From assembly GCF_030028105.1 (NCBI RefSeq), contig NC_092374.1, positions 197,279,345-197,343,344 of the forward strand: a stretch of 64,000 nucleotides of DNA. The letters run 5' to 3'. Below, piece by piece: positions 39,401-42,400 of this stretch. The position numbers are program-made. The DNA is from Mobula birostris (Eukaryota). How positions within the stretch are numbered: the first letter of the stretch is position 1; the number at the start of each line of letters is the position of its first letter.

Positions 39401-42400
39401 GTTGCTATTGGACTTAAATGAATCTTCAACTCATCAGGTTAATTTAGGACTTTTCGGTTAAAAGGGTAGTTGCCATGCCCGAGCTAAGATGTGGAACTCT
39501 CCAATCGCGAGGGAATCACAAGAGTTGAGAGATTCGCCCTAGTTCAGGCCGTTGTGACCTCTTATAGCGTCCATTAGTAAAATATTGATTGGGGGTGGTG
39601 GTCTTATTATGAAAACAGCAAAATATCTTTGGTTGCGGCAGGATCCTCCGATTTACTCAGCTTTCATGTCGCAAAGTTGGTGTGTTACTGAGGCTATGCT
39701 TAGCAGGAGATTTCCCGGTTGCATACGATTTTAAAACAATAGGTCCCTGTGGAATATGAGTCTCAACTCTTCCTCTGCAAGTCTGAGGCTTAACAGGAGA
39801 CGAAGTATCGAAAAGGTGCGACATTCTAACCGGGAAAATGGGAGGAGCCTATTCCTTTGAGGTGTCACAGCGCAATGATGGAGTGTTAGGAAAGACACCA
39901 GAGCGTTTCTAAACTCCAAATCATGGCTTAGTCGACTAATTGTGCAGGGTGGGAAGTGTACGACAGGCGCGGCTTTCTGAGTGCTCGATTTTGAGCTGAA
40001 CGCGAGCCACTTTCGGAGAGGAAAAAGCACAACCGCGCCGCTTCGGGCTGTACCGGGAGGCCGGTTGTGTCTACCGCGTCCGCGCCGCCGCTTTAACCGC
40101 CGCCCCGCCGGGGCGGTGCCGTCATTGGAGCCGCAGCTGCGGGGCGGAAGCAACGCGAGTGGGCGGCTACTGAATGGCAGATTCGGAAGTGGTGGGCACC
40201 GACGTCTCTGCTGCGACGGCCCCGGCACCGCCACCACCTGCTGTCCCGTCTCCTTCCGACGAGGCAGCGGTGCTGGACATTGCGGCGGCCGTGAAAAAGA
40301 AGCGGAGGCAGTACCGGCACAGGAAGTTTGGCTGTACGGTGGCCGAGCATATCATGAAGGCAGTGGCATCCACCAGGGAGCGCCGCCGGGTCTCGGTGGC
40401 CGCTATGAAGAAAGCGCTGTCGCCCAGCGACTATAACTTGGCCCGCAGTAACTCGCGGGTTAGTCGAACTGTGCGCAGCCCGCCCAGCAAAGGACCGCTG
40501 GAGCAAACGGCGGGCTGTGACGCCTTGGGCTCGGCCAAGCTCGGCAACAGTCCGGAGGAAACGACGGCAGCCACCCCCAAGGTGGCCAGGAAGTCCCGAA
40601 GACCGAGGGCAACAGGCAGGAAGAGGTGCCAGCGGGTGAAGAGACTGGACAGGCACCGTAGAAAGTACGGCGCCGTGAAAAAGTCGACCCGCTGGAAAGG
40701 CACCCGGGTGAAGAAAGTGTTGGCGAGCCGCCGGGGCTCGAGAAAGCCCAGGAAGTCTGCGAAGAGCCCATTAGAGTGCGAACCCAACAGATTTGGATCT
40801 GAAACCGACTCCATCCAAACACAATGACTCAGACAAGAGCTGAAACAGTTTATATTATGTTAACCTGACGTAACCGACATATGTGCTAATGATTTTTTTG
40901 ATCAAATAAAAAGAAAATAAATCGTGTATAGTTGTTTACTTGTGTTTAGAAACACCTAACAAAAATGATTAAGGTTCACTCCACCTCTCCCTTCTCTTTG
41001 CAGACATAAATTATCAAACTTGCTAATTATCGCTTCTCAGTAACCTTACCAATTCTATCTCTACTGCACGTTTCCTGTGACTATAATTTCCCTTTTACTG
41101 CTTGGGTCTTCATTACGAAAGTAGGTTCAAATTAAGGAAAGGAAAATTCAGAACTATTATGAAATGCTTCAACTGAAGGGATTTTAATTTTTTATTGAAT
41201 AAAGAATAAACCAATAGAGGTTTTAAACTCAATCCATGAAAGCTCTTCAGAATAACGCTGAAATTTTCCTTTCCGAAATTGGAACCAACCTTTGTAATGA
41301 AGATTTGAGACTGCAGAAGCTGGAAAACTCGAGCAACACACAAAACGCTAGAGTAACTCAGCAATATAGGCAGCATCTATAGAGGGAAATGGGGAGTCGA
41401 CGTTTCACGCCAAGACCGTGCCGATCAGGATCTCGGCCCAAAACGTCCATTGTCCATTTTCCTCCACAGCTGCTGCCGGATCTGTTCCTCCAACAGTTTT
41501 TTTGTGTGTTGCTGCCTTCATATGATTCAGGTTGAAATATTAAATGTACAATTTCATAAGTTTTCACTGCATTTCAATCTAATATGATTCGTTTATGTTG
41601 AATTTAACAATTTTCTAGACATGTTTAATTATACACGACGCGTTAAGTTCTCAAATTGATTTTTTTTTAACCCGTGTTACCCAGCTGCATCTGCACTCTT
41701 CCAGTAAGAAAGAGTCGCTGATTTAAAATAAGATGGGCAGATTCTGAATTGTGGTCGTACTGTTCCTCCCCCCCCCCATAGAAAAATTTGCCAAGAACAA
41801 TCGTAGTCGTGGAAAGACCATGATCGCCTACGTCATACGAGACGGCAGATACAGTAACGAAAGACGAACAGTTAATAAGTTTCATCAAATCCAGAAGACA
41901 CCCACATCCATACATAAAAGTTGCTTCCATTAGACTTTCGTTTGATCTGCACTATGACCGAGTAAGTTAGAACAAAGCGTTTTGTCCCCGAATATTTTGT
42001 ATCTCGTACAAAGAAATGAGCTGGATATACAAGAGATGTGGATGCTAGCGTCTTGGGGGCGGTTAATAAAAACAAACTGCTTTAGTGCCGCGCCGATTGA
42101 GCAGCATCTGCGGAAGGAAATAGATAATCAACGTTTAGTTAGAAATTAGATGCAGTTTTTATGAACAGGCCACCCGAGTTGGAAAATGGCGGGATTTAGT
42201 CTTGGATATCATGAATGCAGTCAAATTTTGTTCGTGACGAGATCTGATACAGACACGGTCCAAATCAGAGTCCAGGGATGGCTCCTTTATGTTGACACAT
42301 TCGCTTTAGTTGTTGGATACCTGCGGCATATTGCAGAGCCGGCAGGAAAATGTTTCGGGACGTCTTGCTGTAGCCATTCATTGATGCACAACTGCTTTCG

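What the first reader, a model, noticed from the sequence alone, without database searches (positions are those of the whole stretch)
40174..40921. H1-derived Arg/Cys-containing protamine-like ORF that appears to have swapped stem-loop for polyA
Seen: the tail from PKVARK to AKSP has 17 Arg versus 13 Lys by hand count, whereas somatic H1 tails are Lys/Ala/Pro with almost no Arg. The protein has 4 Cys. The helix 3 region has prolines (RSPPSKG versus KSLVSKG) and the wing reads LGSAKL versus SGSFKL. I find no histone stem-loop after the stop, but AATAAA occurs at 40905 and 40916. Established: protamine-like sperm proteins derive from H1 by a Lys-to-Arg shift, and shark sperm proteins include Cys-containing protamines. 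Inference: an H1-to-protamine intermediate expressed independently of replication.
Basis: partly seen in the sequence, partly recalled or inferred. Interest (0 to 1): 0.7.

Follow-up and report, generated by a model that had tools for sequence, protein, structure and literature searches.

The report
Arginine-rich linker histone of rays
A ray gene encodes a shark-and-ray version of the DNA-packing protein histone H1 with an arginine-rich tail and probably a poly(A) message end, most likely for germ cells; it is a new member of a known kind, not a missing link to protamines.

Summary
ORF 40174-40827 (+, 217 aa) scores above the Pfam Linker_histone cut-off. Its tail has 17 Arg and 13 Lys, and the protein has 4 Cys. 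Helix 3 carries three prolines. No histone stem-loop follows the stop, and AATAAA sits at 40905 and 40916. Eight other histone-like genes in the window keep a stem-loop, six perfect and two degenerate.

It is a real gene. Orthologues occur in 12 named elasmobranch species, 7 batoids and 5 sharks. All have Arg-shifted tails, R/(R+K) 0.45-0.71, and a strongly conserved motif before helix 1.

The "protamine-like intermediate" reading is only partly supported:
- K+R is 24 mol%, which is not protamine-like.
- Only 1 of the 4 Cys is conserved.
- The helix-3 prolines are confined to the Mobula and Hypanus branch.
- New here: the last 18 codons are frameshifted. The family's conserved C-terminus is still readable in the +1 frame (40775-40843).

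Best reading: an elasmobranch replication-independent, Arg-rich H1 variant, probably germ-line, analogous to mammalian H1T2 and HILS1, and partly eroded in mobulid rays. Expression is untested.

The parts
39874..40173 (+). CpG-island-like upstream region. No TATA box. Inverted CCAAT (ATTGG) at 40124-40128 and GC boxes.
   Evidence: the 300 nt upstream have GC 0.61 and CpG o/e 1.21, no TATA[AT]A, and ATTGG at -50. One search gives the sequence. Promoter function is inferred, not shown.
40174..40827 (+). Single-exon CDS of a 217-aa Arg-rich linker histone variant.
   Evidence: Colinear over its full length with the 217-aa Mobula hypostoma protein P0001, 96% identity.
40270..40329 (+). Residues 33-52: the family-defining motif VLDIAAAVKKKRRQYRHRKF just before helix 1.
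   Evidence: K41 K42 K43 R44 R45 R48 H49 K51 are invariant in 13 of 13 members. Mean pairwise identity is 0.88 among the 10 non-myliobatiform members.
40330..40545 (+). Residues 53-124: globular (winged-helix-derived) domain, with conserved Cys54 at its start.
   Evidence: Pfam match and GH1 alignment. Cys54 is present in 12 of 13 members.
40456..40500 (+). Residues 95-109, the helix-3 segment RVSRTVRSPPSKGPL, with three prolines.
   Evidence: the prolines occur only in the window and M. hypostoma, and Hypanus has one. AlphaFold2 predicts no helix here; the Pristis control with the same alignment gives a helix at residues 92-105. Both models have low confidence.
40576..40770 (+). Residues 135-199: Arg-shifted basic tail with 17 R and 13 K and no S/TPXK motif.
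   Evidence: Arg codons in the C-terminal domain are 11 AGR against 7 CGN, compared with 3 against 9 in the rest of the protein.
40775..40843 (+). Ancestral C-terminus, out of frame. The +1 frame reads SANPTDLDLKPTPSKHNDSDKS followed by TGA at 40841-40843. The frameshift lies just upstream, where TAG at 40772-40774 closes that frame.
   Evidence: 18 of 22 residues are identical to the last 22 residues of the Hypanus sabinus orthologue, and the end point is the same. The in-frame end LECEPNRFGSETDSIQTQ is shared only with M. hypostoma.
40905..40921 (+). Two AATAAA poly(A) signals, at 40905-40910 and 40916-40921.
   Evidence: Use as a poly(A) site is inferred. The T+G content of the next 40 nt is not above chance.
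9126..9703 (+). Paralogous H1-like gene (178 aa) sharing the MAD... start, KKKxxYRP and AEQILEAVAATKER. A degenerate stem-loop lies at 9688-9703.
   Evidence: It groups with the unnamed protein P0122 at 100/99 support. The stem-loop pattern has 1 mismatch and sits 26 nt after the stop.
48402..48998 (+). Third Arg-rich H1-like copy, with helix 1 in another reading frame (broken copy). A perfect stem-loop lies at 48983-48998.
   Evidence: It groups with P0019 and P0023 at 97/95 support.

Best explanation
The ORF is the mobulid-ray copy of an old, elasmobranch-wide linker histone H1 variant.

Origin: it arose from a somatic-type, replication-dependent H1 inside a histone cluster. It kept the region before helix 1 and helices 1-2 under strong constraint. 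It replaced about half of its tail lysines by arginines, largely through AAR-to-AGR codon steps. It lost the S/TPXK sites. At least in this genome it lost the 3' stem-loop, so its mRNA most likely ends at the AATAAA signals and is made independently of S phase.

Most likely role (inferred): a germ-line chromatin protein, probably in spermatids. It would bind DNA mainly through its Arg-rich disordered tail during histone removal, as mammalian H1T2/H1.7 and HILS1/H1.9 do. It would not be a final sperm protamine.

State in mobulids: the copy is further eroded. Three prolines sit in the DNA-recognition helix, the wing is altered, part of the tail is deleted, and a frameshift replaces the conserved C-terminal peptide.

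Shown: domain identity, conservation pattern, composition, absence of a stem-loop, the frameshift. Inferred: polyadenylation, germ-line expression, mode of action.
For: Domain identity:
- Linker_histone scores above its cut-off.
- All 8 PDB hits at E<=10 are somatic-type H1 or GH1. No H5, H1.0 or other H1 type appeared.

Conservation:
- Orthologues occur in 12 named species, 7 batoids and 5 sharks.
- The family forms a clade with 97/97 support, made of the 13 rows plus the unnamed P0101.
- Tail R/(R+K) is 0.45-0.71 in 13 of 13 members. Among 37 unnamed H1 representatives with a delimitable tail of at least 100 aa, 17 are at or below 0.10.
- Constraint is regional. Mean pairwise identity is 0.88 for the motif, 0.86 for helices 1-2, 0.57 for helix 3 and the wing, and 0.31 for the tail.
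- All 8 differences from M. hypostoma fall in residues 113-202, and none in residues 1-112 (Fisher p 0.003).

Composition and codons:
- AGR Arg codons are 11 of 18 in the tail, against 3 of 12 elsewhere. In the neighbouring core histone genes they are 1 of 18 (H3), 1 of 12 (H2A) and 11 of 30 (three H2B).
- There is no S/TPXK in 12 of 13 members. HILS1 also lacks it (PMC6069787, passages).

3' end:
- No stem-loop follows this ORF, while 8 of the other 8 histone-like ORFs in the window have one.
- Two AATAAA lie 78 and 89 nt after the stop.

Resemblance (a lead only): the nearest ESM Atlas clusters by features are 'spermatid-specific linker histone H1 family protein' (0.95, 210 of 256 features shared) and, at rank 4, 'testis-specific H1 histone' (0.91).

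Erosion in mobulids.
Against: - No expression data of any kind could be reached, so germ-line use and polyadenylation are untested.
- The Atlas resemblance is composition-driven and is not homology.
- K+R is only 21-25 mol% in all 13 members, and both ends are acidic. That also fits an oocyte or embryonic linker histone.
- Stem-loop loss could be checked only in this one genome. No DNA of the orthologues was available.
- The frameshift, the helix-3 prolines and the fast-changing C-terminal half could mean the mobulid copy is losing function.
- Both AlphaFold2 models have low confidence (pLDDT 56.5 and 53.6, pTM 0.21 and 0.17).
Confidence: 0.55

Rival explanations
1. It is an oocyte or cleavage-stage linker histone, the counterpart of H1oo/H1.8, frog B4 or fly BigH1. 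Such a protein is polyadenylated, maternally stored, less basic, and has acidic stretches.
For: - K+R is only 24 mol% with 18 acidic residues.
- The N-terminus contains an acidic DEAxVLD stretch, and the ancestral C-terminal peptide is acidic.
- The 3' end looks polyadenylated.
- The related 9126-type protein P0122 has a poly-Glu run.
Against: - The PDB search found only somatic-type H1, not H1.8-type chains.
- The nearest Atlas clusters are spermatid and testis H1 types.
- Arg-rich tails are typical of male germ-line proteins (recalled).
Confidence: 0.15
2. It is a somatic replication-independent variant, used like H1.0 or H1.10 in differentiated or quiescent cells and with no germ-line role.
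For: - The promoter region is CpG-island-like and lacks a TATA box.
- The gene is single-exon with poly(A) signals, as described for H1.0 and H1.10 (recalled).
Against: - There is no similarity to H1.0 or H5 chains, even at E<=10.
- Rapid change of helix 3, the wing and the tail, together with the Arg shift, is unusual for somatic variants.
Confidence: 0.1
3. In mobulid rays the gene is a decaying relic. The open frame persists but the protein no longer works. The family may be functional elsewhere.
For: - Three prolines sit in helix 3 and the wing is altered.
- No helix 3 is predicted, unlike in the Pristis control.
- Part of the tail is deleted.
- A frameshift removes the conserved C-terminal peptide.
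- There are 8 changes in 105 residues against M. hypostoma.
- The neighbouring H1-like copy at 48402 is itself broken.
Against: - The ORF is intact and of the same length in two mobulid genomes.
- No change in residues 1-112 against 8 in the remainder is not what neutral decay predicts (p 0.003).
- The promoter CpG island is intact, with o/e 1.21.
- Helix 3 also degenerates in Chiloscyllium and in P0101, where the ORF is likewise kept.
Confidence: 0.12
4. One reading: a true protamine-like sperm nuclear basic protein, an H1-to-protamine intermediate that packs DNA in mature sperm, with cysteines for disulphide cross-links.
For: - An H1 domain joined to an Arg-shifted tail.
- One conserved Cys, in 12 of 13 members.
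- PL-I proteins are H1-related, Arg- and Lys-rich sperm proteins (PMC4584325, passage).
- Sharks are listed among fish using PL-type proteins (PMC13148410, passage).
Against: - K+R of 24 mol% is below ordinary H1 and well below the PL range. The ranges are recalled, not tested here.
- No protamine family matched.
- The tail alone found no named look-alike cluster.
- Three of the 4 Cys are not conserved, and one of them comes from the frameshift.
- The main text of the catshark sperm proteome paper never mentions histone or protamine. Its supplements could not be seen.
Confidence: 0.1

Closest known systems
Mammalian spermatid linker histones H1T2 (H1FNT, H1.7) and HILS1 (H1.9)
   Same: - Both are H1-domain proteins with Arg-containing tails.
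- Neither has S/TPXK motifs. For HILS1, for this family.
- The globular domain is divergent and poorly helical.
- They are the nearest clusters in language-model feature space.
- The expected role is histone removal rather than final packing.
   Different: Clear orthologues of H1t, H1T2, Hils1 and H1oo are stated to be restricted to mammals (PMC3380720, passage). This family is found in elasmobranchs and sits beside somatic-type H1. The resemblance is therefore convergent. No direct sequence comparison was possible, because no tool supplied those reference sequences.
Somatic replication-dependent H1 (chicken GH1, human H1.1-H1.4)
   Same: - They are the best sequence relatives, with E from 1e-11 to 7e-10.
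- The layout is tripartite.
- The gene lies in a histone cluster.
   Different: - The tail has R/(R+K) of 0.58, against roughly 0-0.1 in typical H1.
- There is no S/TPXK motif and no stem-loop, and two AATAAA follow the stop.
- Conserved Cys54 and the KKKRRxYRHKKFG motif are new features.
- The Lys of the wing motif QTKG is Ala family-wide. The role of that Lys in DNA binding is recalled.
PL-I protamine-like sperm proteins (for example Mullus surmuletus and bivalves)
   Same: They are H1-derived proteins with a winged-helix core and mixed Arg and Lys tails (PMC4584325, passage).
   Different: Basic content is much lower here, 24 mol%. Sperm localisation is unknown. No PL-I sequence was available for comparison.
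Scylliorhinines and shark protamines (Z1, Z2, Z3, S4)
   Same: They come from the same animal group, are Arg-rich, and some contain Cys (recalled).
   Different: They are small peptides with no H1 domain (recalled). Here the protein is 217 aa with a Linker_histone domain and only one conserved Cys. This comparison was not tested, because no sequences were available.

Membership tests
Linker histone H1/H5 (Pfam PF00538) | Linker_histone domain above the curated score | tested here: met
   27.4 bits against a cut-off of 22.4, residues 56-123. GH1 1ghc matches at E 1.2e-11.
Linker histone H1/H5 (Pfam PF00538) | Three-helix winged-helix fold with a beta-hairpin wing | tested here: inconclusive
   The AlphaFold2 model of the window protein has one long helix, 56-82, no helix 3 and no wing (pLDDT 56.5). 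The Pristis orthologue with the same 13-row alignment gives three helices but no wing (pLDDT 53.6). Both models have low confidence.
Linker histone H1/H5 (Pfam PF00538) | Lys-rich C-terminal tail with S/TPXK motifs | tested here: not met
   Tail R/(R+K) is 0.58. There are no S/TPXK motifs.
Replication-dependent histone genes | Conserved 3' stem-loop (Rfam RF00032) shortly after the stop codon | tested here: not met
   None at E<=10 in 40000-42500, none in the whole-window scan, and none by pattern search. Eight neighbouring histone-like ORFs serve as positive controls.
Replication-independent polyadenylated histone variants | Poly(A) signal after the stop codon and a polyadenylated transcript | tested here: inconclusive
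   Two AATAAA lie 78 and 89 nt after the stop, and 1.7% of 120-nt windows have two or more. The transcript itself cannot be tested here.
Protamine-like PL-I proteins | H1-related core plus very high Arg+Lys content (about 35-50 mol%, recalled) | tested here: not met
   The core is present, but K+R is 24.0 mol% here and 21-25 mol% in all 13 members.
Protamine-like PL-I proteins | Major basic protein of mature sperm nuclei | not testable with these tools
   No expression or proteome data were reachable.
True protamines | Small, more than about half Arg, matching a protamine family model | tested here: not met
   The protein is 217 aa with Arg 30 of 217. No protamine Pfam family matched at E<=10.
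Mammalian H1T2 and HILS1 | Orthology to H1.7 or H1.9 | not testable with these tools
   No reference sequences were obtainable. The literature states these clades are mammal-specific. Only feature-space resemblance was seen.

The most novel reading that the evidence does not exclude
Cartilaginous fishes independently evolved their own set of Arg-rich H1 variants that may be male germ-line proteins. Three distinct types sit in this one cluster. In this family the winged helix is being dismantled lineage by lineage: prolines in helix 3 in myliobatiform rays and in carpet sharks, wing loss in Chiloscyllium punctatum, and loss of the C-terminal peptide by frameshift in Mobula. Meanwhile the pre-helix-1 motif and the Arg tail persist. 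That would be a living series along the proposed path from H1 through protamine-like proteins to protamines, including the switch from a stem-loop to a poly(A) 3' end.
Probability: 0.15. Interest if true: 0.6.

Novelty: new member of a known kind. Interest (0 to 1): 0.38.

Why it matters
Germ-line H1 variants are documented mainly in mammals, frogs, flies and a few invertebrates. Clear orthologues of the mammalian ones are stated to stop at mammals. Six literature searches found no paper describing H1 variants of sharks or rays.

A conserved, Arg-shifted elasmobranch H1 that has lost its stem-loop would be an independent case of the same solution. It would also be a handle on how these animals remodel sperm or egg chromatin.

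On the practical side, the automatic names ('histone H1.11R-like', 'histone H1-like') hide a distinct family. The mobulid copies also carry a frameshifted end that annotation pipelines pass silently.

Tried and rejected
- Frameshift origin of the Arg-rich tail. The other two frames of the tail do not encode a Lys/Ala/Pro-rich H1 tail, so this is rejected. The same check revealed the separate C-terminal frameshift.
- Atlas search with the tail alone, residues 125-217, named clusters only: no usable hit.
- Profile searches of the named protein collection. Their word filter scored only 8000 candidates each. They returned 12 hits and 7 hits. They added Amblyraja radiata and one Callorhinchus milii protein, P0022. 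P0022 is Arg-rich but falls in another clade.
As a result the species of P0014 (the nearest outsider), P0101, P0122, P0019, P0023 and the other Arg-rich clades stay unknown.
- A GU-rich downstream element. T+G is 0.575 in the 40 nt after the second AATAAA, and 25.6% of windows reach that value. It is not evidence.
- The sigma-70 promoter and terminator scan is irrelevant to a vertebrate gene.
- Fold search and complex prediction were not used. Both models were too weak, and no binding claim is made.
- The Lewis et al. [quoted passage not shown] It was seen only in reference lists.
- The catshark sperm proteome paper has 0 mentions of histone, protamine or linker in its main text.
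Full report
**What is there.** The window holds a single open frame at 40174-40827 on the + strand, 217 aa.
- It scores 27.4 bits on Pfam Linker_histone, cut-off 22.4, over residues 56-123.
- Against solved structures its 8 hits at E<=10 are all somatic-type H1: chicken GH1 at 1.2e-11 and human H1.1, H1.2, H1.3 and H1.4.
The stretch from PKVARK to AKSP has 17 Arg and 13 Lys, and the protein has four Cys, at 54, 115, 151 and 202.
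- The alignment to GH1 shows RSPPSKGPLEQ where GH1 has KSLVSKGTLVQ, and LGSAKL where GH1 has SGSFRL.
- AATAAA lies at 40905 and 40916.

**The missing stem-loop is real.**
- Rfam's histone stem-loop model finds nothing in 40000-42500, even at E<=10.
- In the whole-window scan it finds stem-loops after six other histone-like ORFs: one at gathering score and five just below.
- A consensus pattern search agrees. Perfect stem-loops lie 28-144 nt after the stops of:
  - H3 (12988-13398, -)
  - H2A (14993-15382, -)
  - an H2B-like ORF (19890-20261, -)
  - an H1-like ORF (48402-48839, +)
  - two H2B copies (52072-52482 and 54428-54838, +)
- Degenerate stem-loops follow the H2B at 50350-50760 (2 mismatches) and the H1-like ORF at 9126-9662 (1 mismatch, 26 nt after the stop).
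- So 8 of the 9 histone-like ORFs in the window have a stem-loop, and this ORF alone has none.
- It does have two AATAAA within 90 nt of the stop. AATAAA occurs 0.98 times per kb per strand here, and 1.7% of 120-nt windows hold two or more.
- The 40 nt after the signals are not unusually GU-rich.
- Upstream there is a CpG-island-like stretch: GC 0.61, CpG o/e 1.21, no TATA box, and an inverted CCAAT at -50.
- Loss of the stem-loop is shown for this genome. Polyadenylation is inferred.

**It is a conserved gene.**
- A search of the named protein collection found 11 relatives among 2322 candidates. A profile search added one more.
- The 12 named species are:
  - Batoids: Mobula hypostoma (96% identical, same length), Hypanus sabinus (79%), Pristis pectinata, Rhinoraja longicauda, Leucoraja erinacea, Amblyraja radiata and Narcine bancroftii.
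  - Sharks: Heptranchias perlo, Heterodontus francisci, Chiloscyllium plagiosum, C. punctatum and Pristiophorus japonicus.
- Their databases call them 'histone H1-like' or 'H1.11R-like'. The window's own protein is not among them, so the window comes from a ray close to, but not the same as, that M. hypostoma record.
- No spliced model was needed. The ORF is colinear with the orthologous proteins.
- An unfiltered HMMER search of 1.84 billion representatives with the family profile gave 585 hits at E<=0.001 and 7 at E<=1e-30. Scores drop sharply after the family.
- In an IQ-TREE of 43 globular domains, which I chose, the 13 family rows plus one unnamed fragment (P0101) form a clade with 97/97 support. 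The unnamed P0014 is sister at 88/94.

**What the family conserves.**
- All 13 members have Arg-shifted tails, R/(R+K) 0.45-0.71.
- Among the 37 unnamed H1 representatives whose tail I could delimit at 100 aa or more, 17 have a ratio at or below 0.10 and 7 at or above 0.50. The species of those representatives are unknown and some look mammalian, so I treat them only as a bulk baseline.
- The best-kept part is not helix 3 and the wing, as would be expected for H1. It is a motif just before helix 1, consensus LDIAVAVKKKRRPYRHKKFGC, together with helices 1-2.
- Mean pairwise identity among the 10 non-myliobatiform members is 0.88 for the motif and 0.86 for helices 1-2. It is 0.57 for helix 3 and the wing, and 0.31 for the tail.
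- Cys54 is present in 12 of 13 members. C115 and C151 occur in 3 of 13 each, and C202 occurs only in the window.
- S/TPXK motifs are absent in 12 of 13 members. K+R is only 21-25 mol% in all 13.
- Arg codons in the window's tail are AGR in 11 of 18 cases, against 3 of 12 in the rest of the protein. In the neighbouring core histone genes AGR is 1 of 18 in H3, 1 of 12 in H2A and 11 of 30 in the three H2B copies. This fits single-step AAR-to-AGR changes from lysine.

**What is special to the mobulid copy.**
- The helix-3 prolines are not a family trait. Only the window and M. hypostoma have RSPPSKGP, Hypanus has RSRPSKGS, and most other members have the usual LVSKGSL.
- AlphaFold2 with the 13-row alignment predicts a single long helix, 56-82, and no helix 3 for the window protein.
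- The Pristis orthologue with the same alignment gives three helices, at 55-70, 74-83 and 92-105. Both models have low confidence (pLDDT 56.5 and 53.6), so this is only suggestive.
- The two Chiloscyllium proteins and P0101 also have prolines or deletions in this segment. Erosion of the DNA-recognition half has therefore happened more than once.

**The frameshift, new here.**
- The last 18 residues, LECEPNRFGSETDSIQTQ, are out of frame relative to the family.
- The +1 frame from 40775 reads SANPTDLDLKPTPSKHNDSDKS and stops at TGA 40841-40843.
- That peptide matches the last 22 residues of the Hypanus protein at 18 of 22 positions and ends at the same point. It is recognisably the C-terminal peptide of Pristis and the skates.
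- A TAG at 40772-40774 closes that frame, so the shift lies just upstream.
- M. hypostoma shares the shifted end. Cys202 is a product of the shift.

**Is the mobulid copy alive?**
- All 8 differences between the window and M. hypostoma lie in residues 113-202, and none lie in 1-112 (Fisher p 0.003).
- That argues for continued constraint on the N-terminal half and against plain decay.
- It leaves open that the C-terminal half is free or under positive selection.
- Codon-level tests need orthologue DNA, which no tool here supplies.

**Context.** The window is a cluster of divergent histone genes, not of canonical copies.
- The H3 differs from H3.2 at 5 of 136 positions.
- The three 136-aa H2B copies have a novel N-tail. 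By my hand count on the alignment, about 15 of 94 fold residues differ.
- There are two further Arg-rich H1-like genes.
  - The 9126 ORF shares the MAD start, KKKxxYRP and AEQILEAVAATKER with the family. It pairs with the unnamed P0122 at 100/99 support.
  - The 48402 ORF has helix 1 in another reading frame, so it is a broken copy. It groups with P0019 and P0023.
- In a FastTree of 159 globular domains, about 39 Arg-rich rows carrying an RRG[LI]S signature separate from 120 Lys-rich rows. Support is SH-like 94 on only 84 columns, so this is weak.
- One of the Arg-rich rows, P0022, is a Callorhinchus milii protein. Arg-rich H1 variants therefore reach holocephalans, though in another clade.

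**Comparison with known kinds.**
- By language-model features the nearest Atlas clusters are 'spermatid-specific linker histone H1 family protein' (score 0.95) and, at rank 4, 'testis-specific H1 histone' (0.91). This is a lead, not homology.
- HILS1 is reported as a poor condenser with low helicity and no S/TPXK motifs (PMC6069787, abstract and passages).
- Clear orthologues of H1t, H1T2, Hils1 and H1oo are stated to be restricted to mammals (PMC3380720, passages).
- PL-I proteins are H1-related, Arg- and Lys-rich sperm proteins (PMC4584325, passage).
- One introduction lists sharks among PL users (PMC13148410, passage).
- This protein is too poor in basic residues to be filed as PL-I or protamine. 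No protamine family matched, and the tail alone found no named look-alike cluster.

**Literature.** Six full-text searches returned no paper on H1 variants of sharks, rays or cartilaginous fish. The catshark sperm proteome paper does not mention histones in its main text, and its supplements could not be seen.

**Verdict.**
This is an H1 paralogue with an Arg-shifted tail and a stem-loop-less 3' end that probably carries a poly(A) tail.
- It is an old, elasmobranch-wide variant, best compared with mammalian spermatid H1s. It is not a protamine intermediate, and in mobulids it is partly eroded.
- Expression, the state of the orthologous 3' ends, and the species of the nearest unnamed relatives remain unchecked.

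Noticed in passing
window 9126-9703 (+): A second H1-like gene (178 aa) with a degenerate helix 3 and wing and an Arg-rich end (RRPRKRRAVSRTVRGRARRK). A stem-loop-like GGTTCTTGTCAGGACC lies 26 nt after the stop. It pairs with the unnamed 198-aa protein P0122, which has a poly-Glu run.
   Followed up: partly
window 48302-48998 (+): A third Arg-rich H1-like copy. Helix 1 (PSTVAGHIMDAVQS) is readable only in a neighbouring frame, so the ORF 48402-48839 is a frameshifted copy. It still has a perfect stem-loop at 48983-48998.
   Followed up: partly
window 50350-50760, 52072-52482, 54428-54838 (+): Three copies of a 136-aa H2B variant with a novel N-tail ([18 protein letters not shown]...). By hand count about 15 of 94 histone-fold residues differ from a PDB H2B. 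Two copies keep perfect stem-loops. The first has a degenerate stem-loop at 50795-50810 and AATAAA 20 nt after its stop.
   Followed up: partly
window 12988-13398 (-) and 14993-15382 (-): The H3 differs from H3.2 at 5 of 136 positions. The neighbouring H2A has the only stem-loop in the window that reaches Rfam's gathering score. The cluster as a whole looks like a set of variant histones, not canonical ones.
   Followed up: partly
window 19890-20261 (-): An H2B-like ORF of 123 aa with many changes and a shortened C-terminal helix region. It still has a stem-loop at 19845-19860. It is probably a decaying copy.
   Followed up: no
window 517-2164, 16849-17388, 20481-21905: Reverse-transcriptase-like and RNase H-like ORFs of retroelements lie between the histone genes.
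   Followed up: no
window 19125-19226: A roughly 100-nt hairpin or inverted repeat matches mir-1791 on both strands and a plastid 3' UTR model. All matches are well below gathering scores.
   Followed up: no
window 58755-59454 (-): Long ORFs made of SLSL and THTH repeats. This is a dinucleotide microsatellite read as protein, not a gene.
   Followed up: no
window 18153-18698: A run of 546 N. It was left as it is.
   Followed up: no
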